DNA from: Thermoanaerobaculia bacterium
GTDB lineage: Bacteria > Acidobacteriota > Thermoanaerobaculia > Gp7-AA8
Direction: 5' to 3'
Length of the DNA stretch: 64,000 nucleotides
Assembly (NCBI GenBank): GCA_035536275.1
Contig: DATLOL010000056.1
Coordinates: 1,339-65,338 of the forward strand
Within the stretch, counting starts at the first letter, position 1. Every line of letters begins with the position of its first letter. A model generated the notes under the pieces. The model searched no databases, had not been told where the DNA came from, and saw only the letters and a program-made list of their open reading frames with translations. Shown here one piece after another: positions 29,047 to 53,639 of this stretch. The translations under genes and the position numbers were made by a program.

Positions 29047-30517
<1,471 letters not shown>

Positions 30518-30521
<4 letters not shown>

Positions 30522-30793
30522 CTGCTCGCGACTCTCGGGCGCTGCTTCCGCGACTCGATCCATCTTTCGAGATCCGCCGCGTCATAGCGAACACCGCTCG
30601 CAATATTGTCGGTGAGTTTGACCCAGGTGGGACCAACACGGCGTGCTCGCCATTTGCGGAGGCAGAAAATCGTGACACCGAGCCGCTCTGCAGCCTCGGA
30701 TTCGTTCAGGAGTCCGTTCGACTGCACGGCGTCTCCACGATCCGTAGAGCTGAACTGATCACCCGGCAATGCCGCTCTTGATGTCTCTTTCAC
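30518..30793 (-). CDS. xis: Excisionase/AlpA-like HTH DNA-binding protein
   Basis: 91 aa with a GTG start. 'LLNESEAAERLGVTIFCLRKWRARRVGPTWVKL...RYDAADLERWIESRK' is typical of the HTH_17/excisionase family. Confidence 0.65.
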
Positions 30794-31035
30794 GGGGTGA
30801 CGTCCCGTGTTTGAACGTTGCGATCAGTTGGTGGAAGCTCCGACGAAGCAGTCGGCGCTGCACGCTCCGCACGCGATGAGCGCCGTCGCGATTCGGCATG
30901 CCCATCGAGTTGGCCGATGAGCCACGTCACGATCCGGAGGCGATCCGCGAGTACCTCGGGTGGATCGCTCGCTGCGAAGACGAGCGTGAGCGGCTCGCTG
31001 CCGGACGCTTTGATACCGAGTTCGATCCGTTGCAT
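30790..31035 (-). CDS. 81-aa hypothetical protein (about 45 structured residues plus a basic/Ser-rich tail)
   Basis: ATG 31035 is preceded by AAGGAG at 9 nt spacing. The stop forms a GTGA overlap with the xis-like start. 'MQRIELGIKASGSEPLTLVFAASDPPEVLADRLRIVTWLIGQLDG...'. Confidence 0.5.
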   Translation of the reverse strand: MQRIELGIKASGSEPLTLVFAASDPPEVLADRLRIVTWLIGQLDGHAESRRRSSRAERAAPTASSELPPTDRNVQTRDVTP

Positions 31036-31085
31036 CTGGTGTACTCCTTTCAATCGCCCAAAGCCGCACTGCAGCGGCATGCGCG

Positions 31086-31913
31086 TCAATCGGTCACAAT
31101 TGCCTTCTGGTCCGGTGTCGGCGCCGGATCGAACTCGATCAGCCCGACGAGCTCCTCCGACGTGGTATCGATGCGCCAGAACTCCAGCCGGCCACGGTGC
31201 GCATCCACGAGGACCGTGCCGCATCGACGAGCAGGCGGCCGTCGCACTGCGGAGGCGACGCGCTGCACGGTGTCGTGAACGCGCTCGCCGTCGCGCCAGT
31301 CGAGGATATGGGCCGGTATGGTGTCATTCGGGAATGCGAGCGTGAGCGTGCTCGACATCGGGACTAGGTCATGAAGGTGCATCACGGTGGTGGTCGACAC
31401 CGTGTCGCGGAGCGTCTGGAGCAGCGAGCCCGCCAGCACATCGCCGCCTTCGGTGAGGTACGCGCTCGATGCGGGGACCACCTGATCGGCGAGCACGTCG
31501 AGGAGCCGCAGGGTTGCGTCTCGCGCGGCGTCATCCGCAGCGGCGATGCTGCCTGCAAGGCCGAAGCACGTACCGCCAGAGGAGATCGGCCCGCGTCCCA
31601 CGAGCTGCCACAGGACCGCAGTGCCGCGGCTCCCTGCGACGAGGCGGCGCGTGACCGCCACAGAATCCAGTGCTGCAACCAGCACGTGAGCGTGCGTCGC
31701 GCGCGGAAGAACCTGCTCCGCGTCCGCCGTCATCGTTTCGACCACTACATCGCTCGCGCGTGCGCGCATGTGGAGCGCGCCGGCATCGGCGCGCCCTGGC
31801 TTCGCATCGACGAGGAGCCACGAGCCGAGGCGTGCAGGTGCGGTCACGGCGTCCAGAATTCGCGTGCCGCCGCGGTGCACGCCGGCCAGGATGATGTCTG
31901 CGTGGGATGTCAT
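31086..31913 (-). CDS. 275-aa hypothetical protein with a Rossmann-like N-terminal half (weak ThiF/E1-like resemblance, speculative)
   Basis: ATG 31913 forms an ATGA overlap with the vWA gene stop. 'DIILAGVHRGGTRILDAV...WLLVDAKPG', 'HVLVAALDSVAVTRRL', 'GRGPISSGGTCFGLAG'. Confidence 0.5.
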   Translation of the reverse strand: MTSHADIILAGVHRGGTRILDAVTAPARLGSWLLVDAKPGRADAGALHMRARASDVVVETMTADAEQVLPRATHAHVLVAALDSVAVTRRLVAGSRGTAVLWQLVGRGPISSGGTCFGLAGSIAAADDAARDATLRLLDVLADQVVPASSAYLTEGGDVLAGSLLQTLRDTVSTTTVMHLHDLVPMSSTLTLAFPNDTIPAHILDWRDGERVHDTVQRVASAVRRPPARRCGTVLVDAHRGRLEFWRIDTTSEELVGLIEFDPAPTPDQKAIVTD

Positions 31914-33016
31914 GGCATGTCCTCCTCGATCGATTGCGCCGTTGGAAGATCGGAGCAGCGCGTCGCGACGTGCACGCGTGTCGGACCGAAGGCGGCGCCA
32001 GCCGCCGTCCACGCGCTGCGCCGGGCCTGATCCGCGCGCGCGGCGGCGCGTTGCGGCGCGCCCTCTCGCAGCCCACCGAAGTGGAACCCGCAGAGACCGA
32101 ACTCGACATGTCGGAGATCAGGTGCGAGTCCGGCGTTCCGTATGGCGGCGATGAACGGCTCCGGATTCGGAATTGTGGTGTCAAAATCACCGAGCGCACT
32201 CAGCTGCCTGCCATCGCTCAGCAGCACGATCTCCTTCTCCCCCGTGCGCGTTCGCAGCCGATCCGCGGCGATGTACATCGCCTCTACGATGGCGGAGCCG
32301 GCATCGCGGTCACGTTCAAGCGGAAGCGCCGCGACGCGTGCGCGCGCGTCGAGCAGGGCGAGGAGCCGTGCTGCGGCGCTACCGGCAGGAGTTTGGACGG
32401 AAAAGAGCTCCGCCGTCGTGGGGAGGTCCCGGCCGATGCGCAGGATCGTCAACGAACTGCCTTCAGGCGCCGCACGCCCGAGCCATCGGTCGTAGAGGGC
32501 CAGAAGCGAGGCCATAGAGCAGGCGTCTGCCGTCCCGATGGACGGTGAGCGATCGCAGAGGAGGATGACGTGGCGGGCCAGTGACGTACCGGTCGCCCAG
32601 CGCGCGAGATCCACGGGGACGGTCGTGCGGTCGGCAGACAGCACGGTGTCCGGCGGAAACTCCACGCTCCGTGCGGACTGCCACCGCACCAGCGAGCCCG
32701 CCGCGTCTTGGAGCATGCGCATGCTATCCGCCCGAAATGCCGCTTTCGCTCGTAGGACATGCGGCCCCCATCGGACGGGCACAATGATCGGCGCCGTACA
32801 CCGCGCCCCCTCGGCATCCGCGTTCGGCGCGCAGACGCGAAACGTCGAGCCTGCGGCCGTCAGGCTGTCACGCATCCACGTCTCCAACTGCGGCGCCGCG
32901 TCAGCTGTGCGTTGGAGATCCGGAACGAGGACGAGATGGTGCTGCGGCGACGGATAGGGGCCACCGCACGCGGTCGCAAGGGTAGCCAGAATGATCGCGG
33001 CCAGGAGCGTTCTCAT
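31910..33016 (-). CDS. von Willebrand factor A (vWA) domain lipoprotein
   Basis: ATG 33016 is preceded by GGAGGAGG. Signal/lipobox-like 'MRTLLAAIILATLATAC|GG'. MIDAS 'VILLCDRSPSIG' (DxSxS) and 'IVLLSDGRQ'. Confidence 0.7.
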   Translation of the reverse strand: MRTLLAAIILATLATACGGPYPSPQHHLVLVPDLQRTADAAPQLETWMRDSLTAAGSTFRVCAPNADAEGARCTAPIIVPVRWGPHVLRAKAAFRADSMRMLQDAAGSLVRWQSARSVEFPPDTVLSADRTTVPVDLARWATGTSLARHVILLCDRSPSIGTADACSMASLLALYDRWLGRAAPEGSSLTILRIGRDLPTTAELFSVQTPAGSAAARLLALLDARARVAALPLERDRDAGSAIVEAMYIAADRLRTRTGEKEIVLLSDGRQLSALGDFDTTIPNPEPFIAAIRNAGLAPDLRHVEFGLCGFHFGGLREGAPQRAAARADQARRSAWTAAGAAFGPTRVHVATRCSDLPTAQSIEEDMP

Positions 33017-34386
33017 TGCCTCCTCCACATCGTGGCGACGGCCGGCTCGCCGGCAAGCAGATCGTCCCGTCCGTACTGGTGGGCAAGCGCGCCAAAAATT
33101 TGGGTGTCGGCGGTCAGCCCCGCGTCGAGGACGTTCAGCCACGTCTCGCGTTGTTCCTTGATGGCTTCACCGGCTTCAAGGAGGGATTGCAGGTATGACT
33201 GCAGTTCGGCAATCGCCTGCTCATGCTCCGCGTCAAGCCGCGCACGAGCGTCGCCGAGATCGTCCAGGCGGCGTTCGGTGTCGCGCAGCGTGATGCCGAT
33301 GAACGTGATGGCTTGTGTGTGTGTGTCGCGGTCCCTGCGGAACGCGTCGCGCTGCTCGCGGAGTACCGCGAGTGTCTGGCGGTGCCGCGCGAGCTGCGAT
33401 GCGGCCATCGCGCCTCCGAGGAGCATGGCGGCGTGAAACCCGCCGAGCCCGAGATGCGTGATGATCGACTCGGGAGCTCCGCCCGCGGCGACGCTGTACG
33501 TCCCGCGGAGCCACGCGATGAATGCGAGCAGACTGAGGACGAAGACCACGACGCCCGCGGCGGCGACGAGCGGTGCGAACGCCGCATCCTGCGTCGTCCG
33601 CGCCGTGGCGAACCGCACGGTCACGTGCGTGACGAAGCGGAGCAGGCGGACGAGGACCACCGTCACGAAGAATGCAGCACCGACAGTCGGGACGAGGAGG
33701 TGGGCGCCGCGCGAGATGGCCGCAGGCGTGGAGAGGTCAATGCCGCCGGCATCCGCAAGGGCTGTGGTGAGCCACGCCGTCTCCACGCCGAGCGCGAGCA
33801 CATACAGCAGTGCAGCGGTGATGACGGCCGTCCACGTTGGCCACGTCCTGGGCGGCGCTGTTGGCATTTGGAGGGCAGCGGCCTGACAGCGACGGAGTGC
33901 GTCGCGGTGCCTTTCCTGCTGCTCGCGCATCCGGCGTACGTCGGCCGTCACGCGCTGGCGCTCTTCGTCACTTTCCGCAACTCGCCGCATCGTCCGTGCT
34001 CGGCGCACGGTGATTTCGGCAATGACGTACCGAATCGCCGCCGCGAGCGGATGGGTCGCGGCGGGGGGTGGCTCCGCCGACGGATCGCCAAGCACGAAGT
34101 CGGACGGCACGCGGGCATCGAACGAACCCCGCGCGAGCCTGCCCTCCGTCGTGACGTCGAGGGGCGGCAGAAACGGAAGGAGCGGAGAAGGGATCGCGGT
34201 GCGGTACGCCGTGAGGCGGCTCCGCACGAAGGCAGCGCGCGATTGTCCGGCCCTCACCGCCCTGCGGGCTTTGAACCACGCGAGGACACCGCGGCCGCGT
34301 ACGCGCGCGACCGAGAGGGAGGAGGGGCGAGCCTTGACAGCTCGTGAGGGAAATATATCTTTTAGTCTGTCCAGAAGTGGCTGCAT
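33013..34386 (-). CDS. Four-TM protein flanked by long Arg/Glu-rich coiled-coil segments, function unknown
   Basis: ATG 34386 (MQPLLDRLKDIF...) is preceded by GAGGAAG. TMs are about 'WTAVITAALLYVLALGV', 'LLVPTVGAAFFVTVVLVRLL', 'LVAAAGVVVFVLSLLAFIAWL', 'LGLGGFHAAMLLGGAMAA'. ATGA overlap with the vWA gene. Confidence 0.6.
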   Translation of the reverse strand: MQPLLDRLKDIFPSRAVKARPSSLSVARVRGRGVLAWFKARRAVRAGQSRAAFVRSRLTAYRTAIPSPLLPFLPPLDVTTEGRLARGSFDARVPSDFVLGDPSAEPPPAATHPLAAAIRYVIAEITVRRARTMRRVAESDEERQRVTADVRRMREQQERHRDALRRCQAAALQMPTAPPRTWPTWTAVITAALLYVLALGVETAWLTTALADAGGIDLSTPAAISRGAHLLVPTVGAAFFVTVVLVRLLRFVTHVTVRFATARTTQDAAFAPLVAAAGVVVFVLSLLAFIAWLRGTYSVAAGGAPESIITHLGLGGFHAAMLLGGAMAASQLARHRQTLAVLREQRDAFRRDRDTHTQAITFIGITLRDTERRLDDLGDARARLDAEHEQAIAELQSYLQSLLEAGEAIKEQRETWLNVLDAGLTADTQIFGALAHQYGRDDLLAGEPAVATMWRRQ

Positions 34387-34608
34387 CGTGTGCTTCCTCA
34401 AAAGCGTTGTGGATGTGGCCGCGGATGGACCCGCGGCGGTTGTCGCTGCGGAAACGCTCGACCGCGGGAACGGTCGGGCGTTTGTCCTGGCCGGCCTACG
34501 GAGGGCGAGGATGCAGGTAGCTCATGCCACCGCACACTAAACTGTCGAGGCACCCTCAGGCCGCACGACAAGCGCGAAAAAGACCGACAGTAACGACATC
34601 TTCCCGAC

Positions 34609-37251
34609 ATGAACGTGTTGGGGGCCCGTGCGATCATCGTGGGAGCGATGGTTTCGCGAAATCATGCTCCCGAAGACGCACGACGCTACGCGCTCGCGGT
34701 TGACGAATTCATCGCCGCGTACAAACGACGCGAAGGCAAGCGGTGGCACGACGCCAGCGGGCCGAATTCAGTCTTCATGCAGCTCGCGTCCGACCTTCGC
34801 GAGTGGGTCGCGGCCGGGCAGAAAGAGGGCGGCCAAGTCCGTCACGAACGGTCGGGCCTCGCAGACACGATTGCCCTCGACAGCAAAGAAGTCATTGGAA
34901 AGGACTACCTCTCAACCGCCCTAGGACGTATCCGCACCCGGCTCCGAGGGCTAGAGGTGTTTGATCAGCAAGGTTTTTTCTGTGACTCAAGCGCGGTCTG
35001 GCTGCAGATCATCGGCCCCACGCATGACGACGACAAGAGCGTCTGGTTTGACGCCACGTTCACCGAACCGCTCGATGCGCGTTCGCGCAGGATTGGCCAG
35101 CGACTGCCGCCTGCACCGCTCCCGGCGTTGCCACTCCACTTCGTCGGACGGACGGAGCTCGTTGCAGAGGTTGGCCGCCGCCTCACGGATGCCCACCGCG
35201 GTCTCGTCGGCTTCCACGGCGACGCCTTAATCGGTAAAACAGCTACGGCCATCGCCGTTGCGGAGGCCATTCGAGATCGCTTCCCTGACGCGTACTTCGT
35301 CGCGCTCGATGCCAGCCGCGGTGGATCGTCAGACGCACTCACGCTGCTCCGGAAAGTGGTGGGCGCGGGGGCTATCGGCGCCCATGACGATGTCGGCGAG
35401 CTGCGTCGACGATTTCGGGCGGCAATGAGTGGCCGCCGAGGGGTCATCATTTTCGATGACGTGAATCGCGCCGATGCGTTTATCGATCTGGTGCCGCCAG
35501 TAGGCTTCGTGTTCGCCCTCACAACGCATGCGAAACTTCCGATTCCCGGCGTCGACTGGATCGAGGTACCGCGACTGTCCGCGTACGCCAGTCGCGAACT
35601 GATCGAGCGCCTGGGTCCACACATCAATGATGAAGACGCGATCGGCTCCATCGCCGCGTACTGCGAGGGGAACCCCGCTGCTCTCTCCGCCGCAGCCACC
35701 TTTCTCACGCTCAATCGGTGGGACAGCGCGCGGAGCTACGTGATGGACTTGCGGTCGATGGAGTGGGATCTGCTCGCGTCGAGCGTGGTGGCCGATGCAC
35801 CCCTGAAGATCCTGTGTTCTCAAGTCTATGAGAACCTGCCGGAGGAAGCCAAATCTACCTATCGACGGCTTGGGATGTTCTCGGGTCGCTTCTCACATGA
35901 AGCCGCCGGTGCAGTACTCGGTCTCTCGACGCAACACGACCTCGCGCCGCTAATCCGATGCGGAGCGTTGCAGTTTGACGACGCATCTGTTACGTACCGC
36001 GTGCCGCTCATGATCCGCTGGCATGCCCGATCACTGCTCACGGCGAGCGATCGTGAGATCACAGCGCCGGCTCACGCTCAACACTACGCGCGTCTGGCCA
36101 AGCGAACGCTCGAAGGGGGCGAGGTTGCCTGCGAGGAACTGCGGTGGAGTTCTCAGGATCTGTGGGATGCGCTTTCCTTCACCGGCCGCAAGGCCGAAGC
36201 AGACCATGTCCTCACCATGTCGTATCGTGATCTCTGCCGTGTACTGCTGCCAGGACGGTTGCCGCGCCCCTTCGAAGACGCCGATGTCCTCAATATCGAG
36301 GAAATCCTCTTGCACTTTGCGGTGACGGAGAACAGTCCGGCACTTGCGACGGCCTACGCAACGGGATGGCTTCTCGCTGGTCGACGGCATGGGCGCGCCG
36401 ACTACCTCGAAACCGCCCTCCGCCTGGCACCTGAAGATGTCGAGATCGAGCAGCATGCATTTGCGGCTCTCGTGGATGTTGCGCGGCAACAAGCTCCCCA
36501 TTCCGCGAAGAGAGTCGCCGAGGCCTTGGTGCGAGCCGGACAGGCGCGGTCCCCTTCGGAAATCTCCCTTCGCGGGCTCCAAGAAGCCGCGATTCTGTAC
36601 GCACTGCTCGGTTCACCCACGAGAGCCGCCGATGCGCTTGAGTTGTTGCGCCATGGTTTTGGCAAGCTTCAACAGAGGCGATCCGCGGCACAGCGCGCGG
36701 TCCACGTCAGCATTCGAGCGATAGTCGAGCTTGCGCGCCGGCAGTGGAACGCAGCGCTACAAACGCTGCGCCGTGCCTACAGGTTAGGCGACCGGCGCGA
36801 TGAGGCGTTTGACGCGCAGCTGTCGGCACTTGCTGCAATCGCGCACGCCGCTAGGGGGAACACCTCTCGGGCAACATCCCTCGCGAGCGACGCAAGTGGT
36901 TGCTACCGCCGCGACGCCATCACCGGCCTCGCAGCAGCCCACGCCTACATTCGTATGAACGAGTACAAGGAGGCAGCTCGCGCGCTTATGATTGCGTTCG
37001 GACCGCGACGTCGCATGCGTGATGTCCACGACGAATTGTGCCAAGCATTGGCCTACTATCTTCACGCGCAAGTGATGCGCATCATCGACGGCGATCCCGC
37101 GGCTGCGACGGCGAGCGCGATGTCTGCTGAGATGTTGCTGCGACAGCACGGCTCTCGCTTTGCGTCATTCGCGAAGAGGCTCGTTGTGATCCTGCGAAGG
37201 CGTGCGCAGACCGGTACGAACGTTGATCACACCGGGCGATCTCAGACGTGA
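34609..37251 (+). CDS. STAND-class NTPase (NB-ARC-like P-loop plus C-terminal helical/TPR-like repeats) with an unassigned about 190-aa N-terminal domain
   Basis: 880 aa; the start could also be ATG 34648. 'FVGRTELVAEVGRRL...LVGFHGDALIGKTATAIAVAEA' (Walker A GxxxxGKT), 'RGVIIFDDV' (Walker B), then a long Ala/Leu/Arg-rich helical repeat region. Confidence 0.75.
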   Translation: MNVLGARAIIVGAMVSRNHAPEDARRYALAVDEFIAAYKRREGKRWHDASGPNSVFMQLASDLREWVAAGQKEGGQVRHERSGLADTIALDSKEVIGKDYLSTALGRIRTRLRGLEVFDQQGFFCDSSAVWLQIIGPTHDDDKSVWFDATFTEPLDARSRRIGQRLPPAPLPALPLHFVGRTELVAEVGRRLTDAHRGLVGFHGDALIGKTATAIAVAEAIRDRFPDAYFVALDASRGGSSDALTLLRKVVGAGAIGAHDDVGELRRRFRAAMSGRRGVIIFDDVNRADAFIDLVPPVGFVFALTTHAKLPIPGVDWIEVPRLSAYASRELIERLGPHINDEDAIGSIAAYCEGNPAALSAAATFLTLNRWDSARSYVMDLRSMEWDLLASSVVADAPLKILCSQVYENLPEEAKSTYRRLGMFSGRFSHEAAGAVLGLSTQHDLAPLIRCGALQFDDASVTYRVPLMIRWHARSLLTASDREITAPAHAQHYARLAKRTLEGGEVACEELRWSSQDLWDALSFTGRKAEADHVLTMSYRDLCRVLLPGRLPRPFEDADVLNIEEILLHFAVTENSPALATAYATGWLLAGRRHGRADYLETALRLAPEDVEIEQHAFAALVDVARQQAPHSAKRVAEALVRAGQARSPSEISLRGLQEAAILYALLGSPTRAADALELLRHGFGKLQQRRSAAQRAVHVSIRAIVELARRQWNAALQTLRRAYRLGDRRDEAFDAQLSALAAIAHAARGNTSRATSLASDASGCYRRDAITGLAAAHAYIRMNEYKEAARALMIAFGPRRRMRDVHDELCQALAYYLHAQVMRIIDGDPAAATASAMSAEMLLRQHGSRFASFAKRLVVILRRRAQTGTNVDHTGRSQT

Positions 37252-37478
37252 CCAGCGTACGCTCTCCGCACAAGAAGGCCGCTCCACGTCGCCGTGCGGA
37301 GCGGGTGCCGGAACGGAGACCTACCCCAACTCCTCGTGGCCTCCTTCGGCTCGCGTCGGGAACCGAGAAGGGTGGGGATACAGCGATCGCCAAGTTGCGA
37401 GAACAACACGGCTTAGCGTCCGCAAGACGTGGAATCGAATCCACACGCCCAGTCCACAGTGCCAAGGAGAGCGAAACA

Positions 37479-37658
37479 ATGGCCGTCCAGCTCTGCTATA
37501 TCTGCGTGTTCAACAACCCGAAGAAACCCCACGAGCAGCGCCCGTCCTATGCAGACTGCGACCGCTGCAAGCAGCCCACCTGCAAAGGGCATGGGCGCGA
37601 CGTGGACTCAGATCGGTTCTACTGCATTCGATGCCTTCGCGAACTCGGACGCTCGTAG
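37479..37658 (+). CDS. 59-aa zinc-ribbon protein
   Basis: AAGGAGA lies 9 nt upstream of the ATG. 'MAVQLCYICVF...ADCDRCKQPTCKGHGRDVDSDRFYCIRCLRELG' (CxxC...CxxC...CxxC). An alternative GTG start at 37248 would form a GTGA overlap with the STAND stop. Confidence 0.55.
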   Translation: MAVQLCYICVFNNPKKPHEQRPSYADCDRCKQPTCKGHGRDVDSDRFYCIRCLRELGRS

Positions 37659-37839
37659 AGTGCCACCACATGATCTGCTCGCCGGGGATGGGTGGGGCGA
37701 CCGATGAGGCGACTCTCAGGATCGCTCGCGGTGAGGACCGTGGCTTCCGTCCTCGCGAAGTATTCGAGATTGGGGTTCACGCCGGCCGACGTGGGTGGAG
37801 ACGACATCCCGGTCCACCTCGGAAGCGCGCGTGTGGCAC

Positions 37840-38542: not shown

Positions 38543-38788
38543 TCATCCCGCCTTCTCCCGAAACCGCTGGCACCCGCACTTGTACGCCTCCTTGCACCGG
38601 CCGTCCGCCGTCACTGCGTGCGCCCGCTTGCCGTGCCCGCAGACGCACAGGGGTTCAGGCGTGAACGCGGTGCACGTGCAGTCACGGCACGGCCCGCGTG
38701 GCTGTGTCGCCGTGTTCCAGTGCCGGCTCTTCTTGTGCCCGCATGTGCATATGAAGCTCGGGCGGTTGTCGAAGAACGCGTCGGTCAC
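38543..38788 (-). CDS. 81-aa Cys/His-rich putative metal-binding protein
   Basis: GTG start in a GTGA overlap with the upstream peptidase-like gene. The motif C-x-CGH-x-K-x-x-H is duplicated ('CTCGHKKSRH', 'CVCGHGKRAH'), plus 'CRDCTC' and 'CKEAYKCGC'. Confidence 0.5.
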   Translation of the reverse strand: MTDAFFDNRPSFICTCGHKKSRHWNTATQPRGPCRDCTCTAFTPEPLCVCGHGKRAHAVTADGRCKEAYKCGCQRFREKAG

Positions 38789-39420
38789 GGTCGCCCCCGC
38801 CGCACCGCAGCGATCGCGCGCTCCACCGGCTCCCGGTCCTCGGGATCATGCGTGAGGCAGAAGCGCTCCTTCGCCTCGCGCCGCCGGTACGCGCGCCGCG
38901 CGTTCCCCGTCCGCGGCACCCGCACGCCCCCGAGGAACGTCTCGATCTCCTCGCCGTAGAGCACCGGCCGCCGCGCGAGTTCGACCGCGAGCGCCTCGAC
39001 GCGTCGCCACGTCTGCGGGCGTTCGATGAGTGCGCGCGCCTGCTCCTCCGCGTAGTCCGACCACTCGTCGATCAGGCGGTGGTCGGACTCGACGAGCTGC
39101 GCCGACGCGAGGATGCCCTCGTAGTCTGTGCGTGGCACGAGTCCCCCCGCGCCCTCGTAGTGGAAGCGCTTCTGCGCGATGAGCCCCGCATGGAAGACGA
39201 TCATCTCGCGCTCGATCGCGAGCCGCAGCGCGTCGGAGCCGGCCGGGAAGCGGCCGAGTCCCACGTCGCTCGCGAACGTCACGCGTCCCTCGCGCACGCG
39301 GACGTACACGTGGATCGCACCGATCCGGACGCCGAGCTCCCACGCCGCGACCGCATGCCCGGCCTCGTGCACCAAGACATCGGCGAGCGTCACGCCGCGG
39401 TGCAGCCGCGCGATCGTCAT
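38785..39420 (-). CDS. Stand-alone FtsH-like (M41-type HEAGH) zinc-metallopeptidase-domain protein
   Basis: Start at ATG 39420 (MTIARLHRGVTLADVLVHEAGHAVAAWELGVRIGAIHV...). HExxH sits in an FtsH-like context. The track ORF extends spuriously to 39924. Confidence 0.6.
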   Translation of the reverse strand: MTIARLHRGVTLADVLVHEAGHAVAAWELGVRIGAIHVYVRVREGRVTFASDVGLGRFPAGSDALRLAIEREMIVFHAGLIAQKRFHYEGAGGLVPRTDYEGILASAQLVESDHRLIDEWSDYAEEQARALIERPQTWRRVEALAVELARRPVLYGEEIETFLGGVRVPRTGNARRAYRRREAKERFCLTHDPEDREPVERAIAAVRRGRP

Positions 39421-40145
39421 CACCAGTCCCCCTGCTCGGCCGCCTGGTAGCCGTCCATGCCCTTCAGCGCCTCGGTGAGCGTCGGCCGGCGCCACACCAG
39501 CACGGTGTTCGGCTCGACGCCGGGCGCCGGCGGCGTCCGCCATGCGGCACCGGAAGGCACGACGGTTGTGTCGGTCGTGAGGTCCGTGAGGAACGCGGCG
39601 ACCGCTGCTCCATCCATCGACCGCACCGCGCGCAGGTGCTGCGCGAGGAGTTCCACGCGCGTCCACGTGCCAGGATCGTGGAGCAGCACGCGCGCGCGTT
39701 CGCGCTGGTACGCATCCCACGCCGAGCGGACGTAGGTGTCGTACACCAGCCGCTCCATGAGGTCGTGCACGAGCGACCCGTCGTCCCAGCCCCACACCTT
39801 GTGCGACCACCCGAGCGCGAGCGCCCTGCCCACGACGCCGCACTGCACGGTGATGCAGTCTCGCTCCAGCGCGATCCGCGCCTCCGTGCTCGCGTCGTCC
39901 CGCGCGTAGGCGAGCGATGCCCACGCGGCTTCGAAGACGCGATGCCGCCCGTCGAAGATCGCGCGGCGGACCGGGATACCGAAATCAGTGGCGACGACCG
40001 CATGCGTGGCCACGTGGATCGCGTCGGCGCGGTGGAACCGCTCCTCCGGCACGTGATAGATCCGGCAGCGCCACGTCGTCCGGCGCGTCCGGCGGCGGAG
40101 CGTGTGCCGCGGGCCGATGCGCTCGTAGTGCACCTGCTCAGCCAC
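39420..40145 (-). CDS. Paralog of the FtsH-like peptidase-domain protein with a degenerate active site (HVATH instead of HExxH)
   Basis: 241 aa. 'ADAIHVATHAVVATDFGIPVRRAIF' aligns with 'ADVLVHEAGHAVAAWELGVRIGAIH' of the neighbour. Its stop overlaps the neighbour's ATG by 1 nt (TGATG). Confidence 0.5.
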   Translation of the reverse strand: MAEQVHYERIGPRHTLRRRTRRTTWRCRIYHVPEERFHRADAIHVATHAVVATDFGIPVRRAIFDGRHRVFEAAWASLAYARDDASTEARIALERDCITVQCGVVGRALALGWSHKVWGWDDGSLVHDLMERLVYDTYVRSAWDAYQRERARVLLHDPGTWTRVELLAQHLRAVRSMDGAAVAAFLTDLTTDTTVVPSGAAWRTPPAPGVEPNTVLVWRRPTLTEALKGMDGYQAAEQGDW

Positions 40146-40651: not shown

Positions 40652-41341
40652 TCACTCCTCCTGATCCAATTCAGGGATGCCGTCTTCGCCGAGGTGCGGT
40701 CGTGGTTCGTGGTGTCCATGACAGTCGGTGCAGACCTGCCGGCCGGGTACGTCGCTCACTCGGCCGCAGTACCAGCAGAAGGCGGTGAACCGGTCGTCTT
40801 CGCGCGGGATGAAGTACGGGTAGTGGAGTGCCGCACGAAACCCAGGAATCGCGAGCTCCAACTCGTCGGCGTTGACCGCGCTCGCAAGGTCGAGCAAATG
40901 CCGCTCGAGAACATCGCTCGCGTTCAGGCGCGCCCGAAACTGGTCGCGCTCTGTCTCCGCGAGATAGTGGAGCAGCCGGATCTGGTAGACCGGCAGGAAC
41001 ACCTCGATCTGTTGAATGCGATTGAGCAGCGGGACAACCGAAAGCCGATCGACCGATCCGAGTGCGCCGCTAATCATCCGCGGCGTCCAGCGATCGTGCG
41101 CGAGCTTCGCTACGTCATCCCAAGGAATGACGAGCTGTCCGCCGAACGTCTCTGTCCCGATTCCACCGGTGGCGATCGCCGCATCCACTTCCTCCCGCGT
41201 CGTGCGCGTGAGCCGGAGCGCGTCGGCGAATGGATAGAGCGGAACTCGCTTCACGTACAGCTCGCGGATCAGCGCGCGATCACCGATGCCTCGCTTAGGA
41301 GTCTTGTTAGATCCGGCGGCGGCCCGTGCGCGTCTCGGCAT
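40652..41341 (-). CDS. Hypothetical protein with a C-terminal Cys4 zinc-ribbon
   Basis: 229 aa; 'FCWYCGRVSDVPGRQVCTDCHGHH'. Confidence 0.4.
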   Translation of the reverse strand: MPRRARAAAGSNKTPKRGIGDRALIRELYVKRVPLYPFADALRLTRTTREEVDAAIATGGIGTETFGGQLVIPWDDVAKLAHDRWTPRMISGALGSVDRLSVVPLLNRIQQIEVFLPVYQIRLLHYLAETERDQFRARLNASDVLERHLLDLASAVNADELELAIPGFRAALHYPYFIPREDDRFTAFCWYCGRVSDVPGRQVCTDCHGHHEPRPHLGEDGIPELDQEE

Positions 41342-41493
41342 CGAGTGACTACCTCGTTCGGCGGACGCGCCGGATGTTCCCGGCCGTGTTTACACATCGG
41401 CGAAGCGGTCGCAGACTGAGGGGCGTCGTCCCCCAACAAGCGCCTTTGTGGAAAAGCGTTAGAGTCGCCGGCCGTGCGGAGAAACAGCACGGC

Positions 41494-42099
41494 ATGGCGC
41501 AGAGCCAGCGCGACGATCAGGAAGCGATCAAGTATCTCGAGCGAGGAGAAGTCGAGCGCTTCTTTCGCTGCATTCCAGAGCGAAAAACGCGTGACCTACT
41601 GCTCTTCGATCTCATCTACCGGCACGGCCTACGGCGGAGCGAAGCCGGTCTTCTCGAACTCGAAAACGTGCGGGATGGGAAGGTCTGGATTGCGCGCCGG
41701 AAGCACGGTTTGCCAGGCGCGTATCCGCTTCACCCGCGAAGCAAAGAGCTGCTGGCGCGCTACCTTAAGGAACGACCGCAGGACGGGTCGGTGTACCTCC
41801 TCCGCAGCCGGCGCCATGCTGACCGGCCGCTCTCGGGCGCTGAGGTCAACCGGCTTTTCCACGCCTATGCGACCGCGGCGGACCTTCCCGCCGACCGACG
41901 CCATGTTCACGTCCTGCGGCACTCGATCGGTGTGCATCTGGCCAACGCGAACTGGGACATCGCCGACGTGCAGGATTGGCTTGGCCACCGCCGCATCACG
42001 TCGACTCTCATCTATTTTCGCATCACGAACAAACGGCGCGAAGCCAAGCATCGCTCTTCCCTTCATTCACGAGAGATCGCGCGGACGGATGGCGGCTGA
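41494..42099 (+). CDS. Short tyrosine recombinase (catalytic domain)
   Basis: Start at ATG 41494 (MAQSQRDDQEAIKYL...). 'YRHGLRRSEAGLLELENV' (Arg), 'HVLRHSIGVHLA' (H-x-x-R), 'WLGHRRITSTLIYFRI' (His...Tyr). Confidence 0.75.
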   Translation: MAQSQRDDQEAIKYLERGEVERFFRCIPERKTRDLLLFDLIYRHGLRRSEAGLLELENVRDGKVWIARRKHGLPGAYPLHPRSKELLARYLKERPQDGSVYLLRSRRHADRPLSGAEVNRLFHAYATAADLPADRRHVHVLRHSIGVHLANANWDIADVQDWLGHRRITSTLIYFRITNKRREAKHRSSLHSREIARTDGG

Positions 42100-42608
42100 A
42101 CGCCACGAACGCACGCTTTTCCACATTTTCGTCAAATCGCGACACACGATCCGGACTGGATTTGACGCGAGTTCGATCGACTACCGTCGCTTCATCGGCC
42201 TCAACGACACGCCGGCGTCGTCGTTTCGGGAGTTCATAGATGAGAAGGGATTTCGACATTCCGGCCGGGTCGACGGCTCCATGCTGCCGTCCGCAGTTTC
42301 CCTCGCCTTGCCGAATGGGATGCGCCCCGTCCCGACGCGCGTGAGCGATGGATGCCGCGGAGATTTGCTGGATTTACGACCGCAGATCTGCGCGCTCAAG
42401 TCGACCATCCCATCAGCTCCTCCAACGTCCGGGGTGAAGGGACCGCGATGCTGACCGGAGCCGTTCTTTGGCGCCGCGGACCGAAGGAAGGTCTCGTGTT
42501 CGCGTCGGGACCGCGAACGTGTAGCCCAGCACCTGTTCCCTCGGTTTGGGACCACCCAAGGTAGGGAAAATTCAATCCCCGTCACTCCTACTACTGGAGA
42601 GAAAGGCC

Positions 42609-45041: not shown

Positions 45042-45064
45042 ACAGGCAGAGAGGAATTCACATC

Positions 45065-46567
45065 ATGAAGAGTCGTGGAATCATAATCAGCCTCATTCTC
45101 CTGCTGAACGTGACAACTGTCGCTGCACAGAAGCTTGCTCTTGTGACTCGTGTTGGGCGCGGAACTGTGGCACCGAAGAAGGATGCGTTTGCGGCGCTCA
45201 CGGCGACATATTTTACTGGCGATTCCAAGGGTCTTCGAGAGGGTCTCGTCGATCTGCTGAAGGACCCGGTATACCTCGACGCGAACGAGAAATTTATCGA
45301 CGAGATCGTCCACAAGTTCGACTTCGACAGGAATTTCTATTCGTTCATCTTCGTAGCCAAAGACCCGACTGCGAAGGATCCGCAACTGGTACGGGTGCTT
45401 ACCTATCCGAAGTCGTTCGCCGCGTATTACAGGGATGCCGGCGCAACTGAAATCGAGCTGGGGAATGCGTCTCTGCCTGGAGTACAGCAAATCTACGACG
45501 TCTTCCTCTATACCGGAAAGGCCTCCATCGGTATCACCTATACGTACACGGAAACCGAAAACCCACTGAACGCGCAGATGATCGCCGCTGCCAAGCTGGT
45601 CAACTTTGGCGAGATTGCGTCTGCAATCAGCTCACAGGATGTCGTTGCGAAGCAGCTCGAACGCGCAGCGCCTGGTGCCCGGCCCGAAGTGGATCCAGCA
45701 GACAAGGAAGTGGTCTACTTCACCATTTCCAGCGTTTCGATTCCAGCCACGCGTGCCACGGTGACGGCAAAGAGCACGGTCGACTTCGGCGACACTCCAC
45801 AAAAGAAGATTCGCACAGCCTCCATTGATGCACTTGCCGATGTCGAGCTTAGGCACCGCGTGATCTCGCCTTGCGCGCTTGCAATCGCTGAAGCCTCAAA
45901 CAAGGCAGTCCGCGACAACACGGCGGAATCCGACGATCCGCTCATTAAACGAGATGACCTGAAAGCGGCCGTGCGTAAGGCGATCAATGAGGTCCAGGGA
46001 AATACAACTTGCCAGGACGAACCGCAGAAGCCGCCTGTCGAAGCGGTCGCGCTGCGCGCGGACACCATTCGCGCGACGATTGACCGCTTTCTTGCCATCG
46101 CCGACGGCGGTGAGTCGAAACGCATGGAGAACAACACCGTCTATACGAACTCTCCACTCAATCGGTTCAGTTTGGGACTCGTCGCTGGCGGCATCTTCAA
46201 TCCATCGGGCGACGATCGGGTCAAGCTATCCGACGAGGGAAAGGTGGTTGCCGATCCGTTGAGCGGAGCGATCAGTGTCGCCGCACTCTATATCCACCCT
46301 ATGCCATACCTCAGCGGCACGGCCAGACCGTCGCAGGCGGAAAGGGTGCGCTTTATGGTCGGATATGTCGCCACTCCCGAACCAGGGCTTGCTGTCGGTG
46401 TTGCGTACCAGCTCTTTCGTGGTTTGACGATGAATGTCGGATACGCGGGTATGCTGGTCGACAGACTTGCGAAGGATGTCGAGGTAGGAACGACACCAGC
46501 GGTGGAACGTCCTTTCGAGCGAGGGGTAGCGCGTGCATTGTTTGCCGGTTTTGGATACAGCTTTTAA
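45065..46567 (+). CDS. Secreted protein with a C-terminal outer-membrane beta-barrel-like signature
   Basis: Start at ATG 45065 (RBS AGAGGA), with signal peptide 'MKSRGIIISLILLLNVTTVAAQ'. The C-terminal part has alternating hydrophobic strands and ends 'ALFAGFGYSF' (terminal Phe). Confidence 0.55.
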   Translation: MKSRGIIISLILLLNVTTVAAQKLALVTRVGRGTVAPKKDAFAALTATYFTGDSKGLREGLVDLLKDPVYLDANEKFIDEIVHKFDFDRNFYSFIFVAKDPTAKDPQLVRVLTYPKSFAAYYRDAGATEIELGNASLPGVQQIYDVFLYTGKASIGITYTYTETENPLNAQMIAAAKLVNFGEIASAISSQDVVAKQLERAAPGARPEVDPADKEVVYFTISSVSIPATRATVTAKSTVDFGDTPQKKIRTASIDALADVELRHRVISPCALAIAEASNKAVRDNTAESDDPLIKRDDLKAAVRKAINEVQGNTTCQDEPQKPPVEAVALRADTIRATIDRFLAIADGGESKRMENNTVYTNSPLNRFSLGLVAGGIFNPSGDDRVKLSDEGKVVADPLSGAISVAALYIHPMPYLSGTARPSQAERVRFMVGYVATPEPGLAVGVAYQLFRGLTMNVGYAGMLVDRLAKDVEVGTTPAVERPFERGVARALFAGFGYSF

Positions 46568-46866
46568 TCGAGAGTCACCGAGAACCTCTCGGATGCGATT
46601 TCCTTGCTGAAGGCCTTCATCTTTTGGGGGGGCTCGACGGTCACGCCTTCCTCGGCCGCGACCTTCTCTGCGTGAGCATGATCGCGTCGCGAACGGGGCG
46701 AACCTGGAGCCGTCGCCTGCAGGGCTGCGAAACCGGACGGCGCCGGTACGGCCGAAGTGCTGCATTCAGATCGTCTTAGACTGTCGCAGGCCGAGCGTCG
46801 ATCCCCACAGGCGCGGGCTGTTTTCCTTCTTGCGTAGGCAAGCGATAGCCAGCAGAATGTGAGAGA

Positions 46867-51014: not shown

Positions 51015-51017
51015 CGT

Positions 51018-52424: not shown

Positions 52425-52453
52425 CGCGGACCCGTGCGAGACTGCGTAGGAGG

Positions 52454-53443: not shown

Positions 53444-53639
53444 TTCCGCCGTCACCCGGTCCAAACATTCAAGATCTCGCAGGAACTGACGAATCGGCCG
53501 AGATCGCTGATTTCGAATCGCATTACCAAGGGCGCGGACGGGGCCCTGTCGCAGGGCGCTCTCACGCGCGGACGGTTGCCATCGCGCCGCGGACCCGTAC
53601 TATGAGGATGGGAGGCGCGACGCGGACGCTCCTCCGTTG

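What the first reader, a model, noticed from the sequence alone, without database searches (positions are those of the whole stretch)
30790..34386. Four-gene cargo operon (4TM coiled-coil protein, vWA lipoprotein, Rossmann-like protein, 81-aa protein) translationally chained into xis-int
Start/stop overlaps link the genes in series. They are ATGA at 33013-33016, ATGA at 31910-31913, GTGA at 30790-30793 (into the excisionase-like gene) and ATGA at 30518-30521 (into the integrase). Only one gap interrupts the chain (31036-31085), and it carries a strong AAGGAG.

The vWA protein has an intact MIDAS (DRSPS...SDG) and a lipoprotein-like signal, so it is probably extracytoplasmic. The upstream protein has four TM helices between long charged coiled coils. 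The 275-aa protein shows a weak ThiF/E1-like Rossmann pattern, which is speculative.

I cannot assign the set to a known system. Coupling such cargo to the recombination genes is unusual and suggests either an island-encoded surface or exclusion function, or a conflict system whose expression is tied to excision control. The STAND NTPase is divergently transcribed 220 bp away.
Basis: partly seen in the sequence, partly recalled or inferred. Interest (0 to 1): 0.7.

Follow-up and report, generated by a model that had tools for sequence, protein, structure and literature searches.

The report
Unknown three-gene envelope module on island
A mobile island next to a tRNA gene carries a rare, unannotated trio of genes (a membrane protein, a metal-binding surface lipoprotein and a soluble partner) that always travel together, sit among anti-virus genes in other bacteria, and here are joined to the island's cut-and-paste genes; what the trio does is unknown.

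Summary
The sequence facts hold. All four start/stop overlaps, the 50-nt gap with AAGGAG, the 4-TM coiled-coil protein (A), the lipoprotein with a vWA fold and complete MIDAS (B) and the NTPase 222 bp away are present.

The natural unit is three genes, not four. A-B-C plus a conserved leader (31086-34500) is a discrete DNA block. Homology to sister elements ends exactly at the stop codon of C. The 81-aa gene D belongs to the recombination module: one D type goes with xis + tyrosine integrase at tRNA-Gly, an unrelated small gene goes with a serine recombinase at tRNA-Glu.

A, B and C match nothing in Pfam, NCBIfam, PHROGs or PADLOC. They are very rare (5-9 close clusters in 5.8 billion; 78 distant C relatives in 1.84 billion). 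They occur together in every locus with enough sequence, with changed gene order and two B-C fusions.

Distant copies lie beside Hma, short pAgo/TIR, CHAT, JAB/E1 or ClpC/ClpP genes, and two show no recombinase in the flanks held. The trio is therefore an autonomous system, most likely a conflict or exclusion module; this function is inferred. The E1/ThiF idea for C is unproven. The compartment of C is an unresolved paradox.

The parts
33013..34386 (-). Gene A: 457-aa inner-membrane protein. It has a basic N-terminal domain with a coiled coil, four TM helices (about 188-330) and a C-terminal coiled coil. Invariant features are a Glu in TM1 (E202) and the loop motif A-[D/N]-x-x-G-[I/V/L].
   Evidence: ORF and sequence. 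Hydropathy in 10 homologues. Alignments. Only coiled-coil proteins matched in PDB. No Pfam, NCBIfam, PHROG or PADLOC family. dN/dS 0.39.
31910..33016 (-). Gene B: 368-aa lipoprotein. It has a signal peptide ending LATA|C, an N-terminal alpha/beta domain and a vWA domain with a complete MIDAS (D155, S157, S159, S241, D268). Four Cys are invariant (154, 166, 309, 354).
   Evidence: AF2 model pLDDT 71.6. Foldseek matches to vWF A1/A3, CLCA1 and PTMP1 in PDB at E 1e-7 to 1e-3, probability about 1.0, and to viral vWA proteins. Invariant residues. Lipobox in 12 of 13 members. No sequence-profile hit to vWA.
31086..31913 (-). Gene C: 275-aa soluble alpha/beta protein. Its N-terminal half has a beta-Gly-rich loop-alpha-beta-Asp pattern (GxHRGG ... 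D36-x-K-x-G-R41 ... D83). The C-terminus is an almost invariant hydrophobic-[T/S/N]-Asp. It has its own Shine-Dalgarno (GAGGAGG) and no signal peptide.
   Evidence: Alignments. 78 relatives in 1.84 billion representatives. 73 of 78 end in [T/S/N]-D. No Pfam or NCBIfam family in 50 members. Marginal SDR match over the N-terminal part, E 1e-3. hhalign against ThiF, MoeB and FabG negative. AF2 model poor, pLDDT 49.
34387..34500 (-). Conserved leader upstream of A. The core 34401-34460 is 95% identical to L003 and 90% to L002, against about 70% in the neighbouring coding DNA. The predicted RNA is stable. It marks the upstream end of the A-B-C DNA block.
   Evidence: Alignment. Sliding identity. 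Fold of -50.9 kcal/mol, z -3.4. No Rfam family. blastn block ends at 34489-34501.
31036..31085 (-). Module junction: the 50-nt gap with AAGGAG (31049-31044). DNA homology to serine-recombinase-type sister elements stops here.
   Evidence: Sequence. blastn W-L002 31085-34501 and W-L001 31090-34299. Identity profile.
30790..31035 (-). Gene D: an 81-aa protein of the recombination module ('type 1'). Homologues are found only next to the xis/tyrosine-integrase type.
   Evidence: Homologues in L003, L013 and L010 (78%, 49-56% and 39-40% identity). No similarity to the small gene of serine-recombinase loci. dN/dS 0.24. No family hit.
30518..30793 (-). Excisionase-like HTH protein (91 aa).
   Evidence: Pfam HTH_17 E 6e-5, 23.6 bits against a cut-off of 27. 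PHROG 66 'excisionase and transcriptional regulator' E 6e-8. 95% identical to the L003 copy.
29058..30521 (-). Tyrosine integrase (487 aa). The ORF reads on through the tRNA terminator and into tRNA-Gly on the opposite strand.
   Evidence: Pfam Phage_integrase E 4e-29. PHROG 1 E 2e-46. Tail '...GRGRGPDQIRLERETGLEPATSTL' overlaps 29047-29154.
29047..29122 (+). tRNA-Gly(GCC), the integration target at the int end of the island.
   Evidence: ARAGORN. Rfam tRNA 69 bits. Sister elements abut tRNA-Gly (L003, by sequence) or tRNA-Glu (L001, L009).
34609..37251 (+). Divergent STAND-like NTPase (880 aa) in the variable slot of the island.
   Evidence: NB-ARC E 4.4e-5, 23.3 bits against a cut-off of 23.5, P-loop GDALIGKT. 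This position holds a 23%-identical STAND-like protein in L001 and unrelated genes in L002, L003, L005 and L006.
41326..42099 (+). Short tyrosine recombinase (257 aa, catalytic domain only). It marks the probable far end of the island.
   Evidence: Pfam Phage_integrase E 2e-26. 39-46% identical to short recombinase ORFs at the same relative position in L001, L002, L005 and L006. G+C falls from 0.66 to 0.58 beyond 42 kb.

Best explanation
Window 31086-34500 encodes an undescribed three-protein module, A-B-C, preceded by a conserved leader.

The parts:
- B is a lipoprotein exported to the periplasmic side. Its vWA domain carries a complete metal-ion-dependent adhesion site (MIDAS).
- A is an inner-membrane protein with four TM helices, two short conserved periplasmic loops and large cytoplasmic coiled-coil domains.
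- C is a soluble alpha/beta protein whose invariant C-terminal Asp is a good candidate ligand for the MIDAS of B.

The three act as one complex. It most likely senses or blocks an invader at the cell envelope, making it a conflict, defence or exclusion system.

In this genome the trio is the constant part of a roughly 13-kb island integrated at tRNA-Gly. Upstream lies a variable slot, here holding a STAND NTPase. Downstream lies an exchangeable recombination module (D-xis-int), which is probably transcribed by read-through from the trio's promoter.

What is shown:
- the anatomy;
- purifying selection on all six genes;
- strict co-occurrence of A, B and C, changes of gene order, and B-C fusion;
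- the block boundaries at DNA level;
- the vWA fold, MIDAS and lipobox of B;
- the defence-island neighbourhoods.

What is inferred:
- that the three proteins form a complex;
- the pairing of the MIDAS with the C-terminal Asp of C;
- the topology of A;
- co-transcription with xis-int;
- the defence or exclusion function itself.
For: Co-inheritance:
- B, C and A have only 6, 9 and 5 close clusters among 5.8 billion.
- They lie side by side in every locus long enough to show it.
- The distant family keeps them together with altered order: B-A-C in L032 and C followed by A in L011.
- B and C are fused in two lineages.

A discrete block:
- blastn homology to L001 and L002 spans only 31085/31090 to 34299/34501.
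- Homology to L003 continues into D-xis-int.

B:
- vWA fold.
- Invariant DxSxS...S...D motif plus four Cys.
- Lipobox.

C:
- The terminal Asp is present in 73 of 78 members.

A:
- Invariant TM1 Glu and a conserved loop motif.

Conflict context:
- L010: Hma and short pAgo/TIR-APAZ genes lie directly upstream.
- L013: a TPR-CHAT protein.
- L032: JAB and E1-E2 genes, then PP2C and a kinase.
- The window and L001: STAND-like NTPases.

Autonomy from recombination:
- No recombinase lies within 10 kb on either side in L032, nor within about 6 kb downstream in L020.
- The recombinase types are interchangeable.
Against: - No function has been tested, and no component matches a validated defence protein (PADLOC).
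- In all 10 close loci, and in the distant L010, the trio sits directly upstream of the recombinase. That position would also fit a role in the element's own life cycle.
- Defence-island neighbours could simply be cargo of the same element.
- Compartments do not add up. B looks exported, C has no signal peptide, yet C is fused behind lipobox-bearing B in two lineages.
- The family is very rare, so the context statistics rest on about 15 loci, many of them related.
Confidence: 0.45

Rival explanations
1. The trio is a backbone function of the island itself. It is an envelope-to-cytoplasm signalling or control device that sets when xis-int (or the serine recombinase) is made, or that helps the island to be maintained or transferred. 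Being chained to the recombination genes would then be the point of the arrangement.
For: - All 10 close loci place A-B-C, then a small gene, then the recombinase at the island end.
- The distant L010 does the same.
- Gaps of 12-19 nt after C in L004 and L005 leave no room for an independent promoter in the gap.
- No terminator-like site lies on the coding strand.
- A highly conserved leader could control the whole transcript.
- The trio is constant while the neighbouring conflict genes vary.
Against: - The trio occurs with no recombinase in the flanks held in L032 and L020.
- It works with two unrelated recombinase families and two unrelated small genes, which argues against a specific molecular partnership.
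- No DNA-binding, replication or transfer domain was detected in A, B or C.
- xis and int diverge much less than A-B-C between the window and L003 (dS 0.26-0.50 against 0.66-0.86). That suggests separate histories.
Confidence: 0.2
2. The trio is an ordinary accessory envelope function, for example adhesion, envelope maintenance or uptake through a vWA lipoprotein. It happens to ride on islands and has no role in conflict or in recombination.
For: - vWA lipoproteins are best known for adhesion and protein-protein contacts (text cited).
- B is predicted to be extracytoplasmic with probable disulfides.
- No toxin, nuclease or NTPase domain was found in A, B or C.
Against: - The family is extremely rare and patchy: it was seen in Acidobacteriota, Myxococcota and Actinomycetota MAGs only.
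- Where the surrounding genes could be identified they are conflict-type genes or mobile-element genes.
- That is the pattern of conflict systems rather than of physiological envelope functions.
Confidence: 0.15
3. C is a divergent E1/ThiF-like adenylating enzyme, and the trio is a protein- or small-molecule-modifying pathway related to bacterial ubiquitin-like conjugation systems.
For: - The N-terminal pattern beta-GxHRGG-alpha-beta-D...R...D resembles E1 motifs when read from the alignments.
- A Foldseek search with the C model lists SAE1, APPBP1, UBA5, ThiF and PaaA among its top hits, at E 4e-3 to 7e-2.
- In L032 the trio lies next to a JAB / 147-aa / 68-aa / ThiF cluster.
Against: - The C model is unreliable (pLDDT 49), and no match reaches E 1e-3.
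- A profile of 78 C sequences does not align with E. coli ThiF or MoeB (hhalign probability below 2%).
- No Pfam ThiF hit in 50 members.
- The only sequence match in PDB is to an SDR Rossmann motif, at E 1e-3.
- C is fused behind an exported lipoprotein in two lineages, which is hard to reconcile with an ATP-dependent enzyme.
- L032 already has its own bona fide E1.
Confidence: 0.1

Closest known systems
TerY-P triad (vWA protein TerY + PP2C phosphatase + Ser/Thr kinase), a validated anti-phage system (own knowledge; included in PADLOC)
   Same: It is a three-gene, island-borne module built around a MIDAS-type vWA protein. A TerY-P-like vWA-like/PP2C/kinase set lies a few kb from the trio in L032.
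   Different: The trio has no phosphatase or kinase. B does not hit any PADLOC model at E <= 1. B is a lipoprotein, and its partners are a 4-TM coiled-coil protein and a Rossmann-like protein.
vWA-MoxR ternary conflict systems (own knowledge: Kaur, Burroughs, Iyer, Aravind 2020)
   Same: A vWA domain acts as the interaction hub of a multi-gene conflict module, and such modules are found near STAND, CHAT and TIR proteins.
   Different: No MoxR AAA+ ATPase lies in or next to the trio in the window. The vWA proteins of those systems are cytoplasmic, whereas B carries a lipoprotein signal.
Gamma-Mobile-Trio (GMT) islands (bioRxiv 10.1101/2023.03.28.534373)
   Same: A conserved trio of proteins defines a family of mobile islands whose variable cargo is rich in defence genes.
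   Different: According to NCBIfam naming the GMT trio includes the recombinase itself (GmtY). Here the trio is separate from the recombinase and is combined with either a tyrosine or a serine recombinase. There is no meaningful similarity: the only trace is a sub-threshold int hit to the GmtY model (E 8.5e-3, 15 bits against a cut-off of 340). GMT islands are described in Gammaproteobacteria, this family in Acidobacteriota and a few other phyla.
Membrane-anchored defence systems with a 4-TM or motor-like protein plus long coiled coils (Kiwa KwaA/KwaB, Zorya ZorA/ZorB; own knowledge)
   Same: A multi-pass inner-membrane protein with long cytoplasmic coiled coils is paired with soluble partners, and threats are proposed to be sensed at the envelope.
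   Different: There is no sequence or profile similarity (PADLOC). Neither of those systems has a vWA lipoprotein. A lacks the MotA/ExbB-type layout.
Membrane-tethered vWA proteins coupled to TolQ/ExbB-like motors (PMC12204202)
   Same: A periplasmic vWA domain tethered at the inner membrane is genetically coupled to a multi-pass membrane protein that has a conserved acidic residue in a TM helix.
   Different: Those proteins are TM-tethered rather than lipoproteins, and they pair with TolQ/TolR homologues. A shows no TolQ, ExbB or MotA family hit. Those systems are not island-borne.

Membership tests
vWA (von Willebrand factor A) domain superfamily: protein B | Rossmann-like alpha/beta vWA fold | tested here: met
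   The AF2 model (pLDDT 71.6, pTM 0.71) matches vWF A1/A3, CLCA1, PTMP1, Ku80 and Rpn10 vWA domains. Foldseek probability is about 1.0, E 1e-7 to 1e-3, and TM-score normalised to target is about 0.5. The top BFVD hits are vWA proteins.
vWA (von Willebrand factor A) domain superfamily: protein B | MIDAS motif DxSxS ... T ... D | tested here: met
   D155-R-S157-P-S159, S241 (in the GSA motif, at the Thr position) and D268 (LLSDG) are invariant in 12-13 members that go down to 28% identity.
vWA (von Willebrand factor A) domain superfamily: protein B | Significant match to a vWA sequence profile (Pfam VWA families or PDB vWA sequences) | tested here: not met
   No Pfam family at E <= 1 for the window protein. 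One of 12 members hits VWA_2, at E 0.077 only. Profiles of 6 and 12 sequences find no vWA chain in PDB.
Bacterial lipoprotein (Sec/SPase II substrate): protein B | N-terminal signal peptide ending in a lipobox with an invariant Cys | tested here: met
   MRTLLAAIILATLATA|C. The equivalent [A/G/S]-C follows a hydrophobic segment in 12 of 13 diverse members. No dedicated predictor was available, and export was not tested.
ThiF/MoeB/E1-like adenylating enzymes: protein C | Match to ThiF family profiles or sequences | tested here: not met
   No Pfam ThiF hit in 50 members and no NCBIfam hit. hhalign of the 78-sequence profile against E. coli ThiF and MoeB gives probability below 2%.
ThiF/MoeB/E1-like adenylating enzymes: protein C | E1 adenylation-domain fold | tested here: inconclusive
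   Foldseek with the C model lists SAE1, APPBP1, UBA5, ThiF and PaaA at E 4e-3 to 7e-2. The model has pLDDT 49, and methyltransferases and reductases score similarly.
Tyrosine recombinase / phage integrase: int | Phage_integrase catalytic domain above threshold, gene next to the 3' end of a tRNA | tested here: met
   PF00589 E 4e-29, 102 bits against a cut-off of 27.1. tRNA-Gly at 29047-29122. No attR repeat was found.
Excisionase / MerR-like HTH_17: 91-aa protein | HTH_17 domain above Pfam threshold | tested here: inconclusive
   23.6 bits against a cut-off of 27. PHROG 66 'excisionase and transcriptional regulator' E 6e-8. The position directly upstream of int fits.
STAND NTPase: 880-aa divergent gene | NB-ARC/NACHT-type P-loop domain followed by repeats | tested here: inconclusive
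   NB-ARC 23.3 bits against a cut-off of 23.5, E 4.4e-5. Walker A GDALIGKT. Weak TPR-like hits in the C-terminal part.
Any catalogued anti-phage defence system (PADLOC-DB v2) | Match of A, B, C or D to a defence-system protein model | tested here: not met
   No hit for B, C or D at E <= 1. A gives only LmuB at E 0.054 over a coiled-coil stretch.
TerY-P triad | vWA protein together with a PP2C phosphatase and a Ser/Thr kinase | tested here: not met
   No PP2C or kinase domain was found in the proteins scanned: A-D, xis, int and the STAND gene, and ten ORFs further right in the window.
vWA-MoxR systems | MoxR-type AAA+ ATPase encoded next to the vWA gene | tested here: not met
   No AAA+/MoxR domain in A, C or D. 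The only nearby NTPase is the STAND-like gene on the other strand.

The most novel reading that the evidence does not exclude
A-B-C is a new kind of envelope-spanning immune or exclusion system.

A periplasmic vWA lipoprotein uses its MIDAS to hold an acidic ligand. That ligand is either the invariant C-terminal Asp of C or the conserved acidic loop of A, and it is held until an invader displaces it. The 4-TM coiled-coil protein then relays the event across the membrane.

Because the trio and xis-int are on one transcript, behind one conserved leader, the same event could also trigger excision of the island. Threat sensing would then be coupled to escape of the mobile element.
Probability: 0.15. 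Interest if true: 0.85.

Novelty: categorically new. Interest (0 to 1): 0.6.

Why it matters
Three co-inherited protein families with no annotation in any library tested form a compact module in defence islands of poorly studied soil phyla.

If it is a defence or exclusion system, it would add an envelope-level sensing mechanism built on a MIDAS lipoprotein. None of the catalogued systems in PADLOC matched it.

The locus also shows unusually clean modular evolution of a genomic island. One constant block is joined, at the stop codon of its last gene, to either a tyrosine or a serine recombination module, and on the other side to a variable slot for conflict genes.

The B-C fusion paradox and the invariant C-terminal Asp of C give direct, cheap experimental handles.

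Tried and rejected
- attR or direct repeat of the tRNA-Gly 3' end. It was not found by repeat finder, k-mer search or local alignment. The only matches were the T-arm of tRNA-Pro and a similar GC hairpin at 53528-53546. The far end of the island is therefore inferred only from the conserved short recombinase and the G+C shift.
- Sequence-profile routes to a fold for A, B and C. PDB hmmsearch with shallow and deeper profiles gave only coiled coils for A, nothing for B, and one marginal SDR motif for C.
- hhalign of C against ThiF, MoeB and FabG, with six unrelated E. coli proteins as controls: no signal.
- AF2 of C with the first five-sequence alignment gave pLDDT 49.
- The search for related loci with distant C alignments failed for lack of a conserved 7-10 column stretch.
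- With the close C alignment, nothing was found in JGI metagenome contigs or in viral contigs.
- My own degenerate DNA pattern found two true loci in genomes and none in metagenomes.
- tblastn of B and of a distant C against the phage and plasmid collections: no match.
- Rfam on 28.9-35 kb: only the tRNA.
- Weak one-off hits were judged to be chance: baeRF_family10 and TetR_C_25 for C, LmuB and SMC for A, Yip1 for the L010 copy of A.
- A possible extra N-terminal TM or Tat signal in A, which would put its large domains in the periplasm, was considered and rejected. The hydrophobic stretch is only 8-9 residues long.
- Programmed frameshifting to make a B-C fusion in the window was considered and rejected. 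There is no slippery site, and C has its own strong Shine-Dalgarno.

Full report
**1. What is in the sequence**

The window has about 66% G+C. NCBI copies of B, C and A carry the source name 'MAG: Thermoanaerobaculia bacterium' (Acidobacteriota).

Six ORFs follow one another on the minus strand between 34386 and 29058:

| Gene | Coordinates | Length |
|---|---|---|
| A | 33013-34386 | 457 aa |
| B | 31910-33016 | 368 aa |
| C | 31086-31913 | 275 aa |
| D | 30790-31035 | 81 aa |
| HTH protein (xis-like) | 30518-30793 | 91 aa |
| Tyrosine integrase | 29058-30521 | 487 aa |

- ATGA at 33016-33013, ATGA at 31913-31910, GTGA at 30793-30790 and ATGA at 30521-30518.
- A single gap at 31036-31085, with AAGGAG at 31049-31044.

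The integrase ORF runs through a terminator hairpin and into tRNA-Gly(GCC) (29047-29122, plus strand). This places the island end at the tRNA. The STAND-like gene starts at 34609, 222 bp from A.

No terminator-like site lies on the coding strand in the whole stretch. The only promoter-like hits are on the other strand.

Against the sister locus L003, dN/dS is 0.13-0.39 for all six genes, so all are real coding genes, D included.

**2. No known family**

A, B, C and D have no significant hit in Pfam, NCBIfam, PHROGs or PADLOC. The same holds for:
- 50 members of the C family;
- 12 members of the B family;
- 10 members of the A family.

The integrase (PF00589, E 4e-29) and the xis-like HTH protein (HTH_17 just below threshold; PHROG 66, E 6e-8) are ordinary.

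**3. The three proteins**

*Protein B.* An AlphaFold model built from six sequences (pLDDT 71.6) matches vWA domains in PDB (vWF A1/A3, CLCA1, the two-vWA protein PTMP1, Ku80, Rpn10) and in BFVD.
- In 12-13 members that go down to 28% identity, the MIDAS residues D155, S157, S159, S241 (at the usual Thr position) and D268 are invariant. So are four Cys: 154, 166, 309 and 354.
- Twelve of 13 members start with a signal peptide that ends in [A/G/S]-Cys. The thirteenth keeps a hydrophobic N-terminus.
No sequence profile recognises it as vWA.

*Protein A.* It has four hydrophobic helices, flanked by regions that match only coiled-coil proteins.
- Charge distribution puts both large domains in the cytoplasm. 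That leaves two periplasmic loops of about 18 residues each. This topology is inferred.
- Across 10-11 homologues, a Glu in TM1 (E202), the loop motif A-[D/N]-x-x-G-[I/V/L], an Arg after TM3, and a C-terminal motif are conserved.

*Protein C.* The AlphaFold model is poor (pLDDT 49).
- A full HMMER scan of 1.84 billion representatives found 78 relatives of about 290 aa.
- The invariant residues are G11, R14, D36, R41, D83, S150 and R169.
- 73 of 78 members end in hydrophobic-[T/S/N]-Asp.
- The N-terminal half reads as beta, Gly-rich loop, alpha, beta-Asp.
- A profile search of PDB gives one marginal match to an SDR Rossmann motif (3wxb, E 1e-3).
- hhalign against E. coli ThiF, MoeB and FabG is negative.
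- Foldseek with the poor model lists E1 enzymes among weak hits (E 4e-3 or weaker).
- 'Rossmann-like' is reasonable. 'E1-like' is unproven.

**4. Related loci: the unit is a trio**

Close homologues are extremely rare: 6 clusters for B, 9 for C and 5 for A among 5.8 billion.

Every contig that carries one and is long enough carries all three. The order is A-B-C, with the same 4-nt overlaps at A/B and B/C.

What follows C differs between loci:
- In the window and L003, C is followed by D, xis and a tyrosine integrase at tRNA-Gly.
- In L001, L002, L004-L009, C is followed by an unrelated 65-73-aa gene and a large serine recombinase. That recombinase abuts tRNA-Glu in L001 and L009.
- D has homologues only in tyrosine-integrase-type loci. 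These include the distant L010 and L013.

The DNA-level picture agrees:
- Homology of the window to L002 and L001 runs from 31085/31090 to 34501/34299.
- It stops at the stop codon of C.
- Homology to L003 continues to the tRNA.

Upstream, the block ends about 115 nt before the start of A.
- Inside that leader, 34401-34460 is 95% identical to L003 and 90% to L002, against about 70% for the adjoining coding DNA.
- The leader is predicted to fold stably (z -3.4).
- It matches no Rfam family.

**5. The island**

- The gene in the divergent position is variable: STAND-like here and in L001 (23% identity), unrelated genes in L002, L005 and L006, and a PKD-like protein in L003.
- A short tyrosine recombinase (41326-42099, catalytic domain only, E 2e-26) is homologous to short recombinase ORFs at the same relative position in L001, L002, L005 and L006.
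- G+C drops beyond 42 kb.
- The island is therefore probably 29.1-42.1 kb. No attR repeat could be found.
- A-B-C is the constant part of this island family rather than its cargo.

**6. Distant relatives**

| Locus | Source | Arrangement |
|---|---|---|
| L010 | MAG 'Candidatus Gilichinskyi gelida' | A, then a B-C fusion, then three small genes (one D-like, one HTH) and a tyrosine integrase. Directly upstream are an Hma ATPase and a short pAgo with TIR-APAZ |
| L013/L014 | metagenome contigs | TPR-CHAT, two large unknown genes, A, a B-C fusion, a D-like gene, then the contig ends |
| L032 | Myxococcales MAG | Order B-A-C, with a B made of the vWA domain only. Then JAB, a 147-aa gene, a 68-aa gene, ThiF, a vWA-like protein, PP2C, a kinase and a HerA/FtsK-like gene. 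No recombinase within 10 kb on either side |
| L020 | Micrococcales MAG | B-C followed by a ClpC-like ATPase and ClpP |
| L011 | short contig | C followed by an A-like gene |

No relatives exist in the phage, plasmid or viral-contig collections.

The trio thus stays together through changes of gene order and through fusion. It is found among conflict genes and does not need a recombinase next to it.

**7. Interpretation**

The best reading (confidence 0.45) is that A-B-C is an autonomous three-protein envelope complex that acts in conflict, as a defence or exclusion system.
- B is outside the cytoplasmic membrane.
- A spans the membrane.
- C is a bound partner.

MIDAS sites complete their metal coordination with an acidic group of the ligand. 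This is established knowledge of integrin I-domains; complement factor B binding the C-terminal carboxylate of C3b is an example from my own knowledge. The invariant terminal Asp of C and the conserved acidic loop of A are therefore the obvious candidate ligands. This pairing is an inference.

Co-transcription with D-xis-int is likely but not shown.
- The A-to-int chain has conserved overlaps, no terminator-like site on the coding strand, and gaps after C as short as 12 nt in sister loci.
- Four-base overlaps are common in compact operons (own knowledge). The exchangeability of the recombination module shows that the link is architectural rather than specific.

The main rival (0.2) is that the trio serves the island's own maintenance or excision control. 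Its fixed position next to the recombinase in 11 loci supports this. The loci without a recombinase in the flanks held argue against it.

**8. An unresolved contradiction**

- B looks exported: it has a lipobox and four invariant Cys.
- C has its own Shine-Dalgarno and no signal peptide.
- Yet in two lineages C is fused behind a lipobox-bearing B with no intervening TM segment.

Either C works on different sides of the membrane in different lineages, or C is exported by an unknown route, or B is not exported. The first two options would also argue against an ATP-dependent E1-type enzyme.

**9. Novelty and verdict**

None of the three families is in Pfam, NCBIfam, PHROGs or PADLOC. Every source name seen for these proteins is 'hypothetical protein'. 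Full-text searches found no description of such a module.

The closest analogies are TerY-P, vWA-MoxR systems, GMT islands, Kiwa/Zorya and motor-coupled vWA proteins. They share one feature each and fail on defining components.

I rate the module as lying outside known kinds of system, while its setting, a tRNA-integrated island with int and xis, is ordinary. Interest is 0.6. The module is real, conserved and unexplained, with clear experimental handles. Against that, it is very rare, its function is not demonstrated, and the contexts rest on about 15 loci.

Noticed in passing
window 34401-34460 (- strand), within the leader 34387-34500: A 60-nt non-coding stretch just upstream of gene A is 95% identical to L003 and 90% to L002, while the adjoining coding DNA is about 70% identical. 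The predicted RNA structure is stable (-50.9 kcal/mol, z -3.4) and there is no Rfam match. It could be a 5'-UTR regulator, an operator, or the recombination boundary of the variable slot.
   Followed up: partly
window 41326-42099 (+): A short tyrosine recombinase (257 aa, catalytic domain only, the size of a DNA invertase) is conserved at the far end of sister islands (L001, L002, L005, L006). Its role is unknown: a second integrase, an invertase, or cassette exchange in the variable slot.
   Followed up: partly
window 36037-36058 and 37714-37735: A 22-nt inverted repeat, 91% complementary, brackets the 3' third of the STAND gene and the DNA just downstream. It might be an invertible segment or chance. 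The alternative reading frame after inversion looked too short for a shufflon-type C-terminus.
   Followed up: partly
L010 10001-11977; L013/L014 10001-11974: Natural B-C fusion proteins (657-658 aa) keep the lipoprotein signal of B and the terminal F-T-D of C. This conflicts with C having no signal peptide when it is encoded separately.
   Followed up: partly
window 29058-29200 (-) against 29047-29154 (+): The integrase ORF has no stop until it has read through the tRNA-Gly terminator hairpin and 65 nt of the tRNA gene on the opposite strand. The L003 integrase has the same tail, and the serine recombinases of L001 and L002 likewise read into tRNA-Glu ('...RDSNPC').
   Followed up: yes
window 42546-53443, up to tRNA-Pro 53640-53713: A second region of lower G+C (0.57-0.62) lies beyond the island. 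It encodes a reprolysin-like metalloprotease with a T2SS pseudopilin-like domain (42546-45041), a C-5 cytosine DNA methylase (47523-48683) followed by a GHKL HATPase_c_3 protein (48683-50059), and another HATPase_c protein (51018-52424). It is probably a separate island or a restriction-modification-like cluster.
   Followed up: partly
window 37248-37658 (+) and 38543-38788 (-): Two small Cys-rich, zinc-ribbon-like ORFs. The first is about 90% identical over 59 aa to an ORF in L003 (3252-3482), so it is part of the tyrosine-type island backbone. There are no family hits.
   Followed up: partly
window 38785-40145 (-): The first of two overlapping minus-strand ORFs (38785-39924) carries an HExxH motif (HEAGH) and a weak Peptidase_M50B match (E 4e-4). 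The second (39420-40145) has no family hit. They may be metallopeptidase-like genes of the variable region.
   Followed up: no
L032 11032-17759: In a Myxococcales MAG the trio (order B-A-C) is followed by a JAB / 147-aa / 68-aa / ThiF-E1 cluster and then a vWA-like / small TM / PP2C / kinase set. These look like two further conflict-type systems in one island.
   Followed up: partly
L020 3182-5672 (-): In a Micrococcales MAG, B-C is followed by a two-domain Clp/Hsp100-type AAA+ ATPase and a ClpP protease in place of a recombinase. It was not determined whether this is a functional link or mere neighbourhood.
   Followed up: no
window 53528-53546: A GC hairpin nearly identical to the terminator after tRNA-Gly (GGGCCGCGTCCGCGGCCC) lies about 100 nt upstream of tRNA-Pro. 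It is probably an independent terminator and was not shown to be an att remnant.
   Followed up: no
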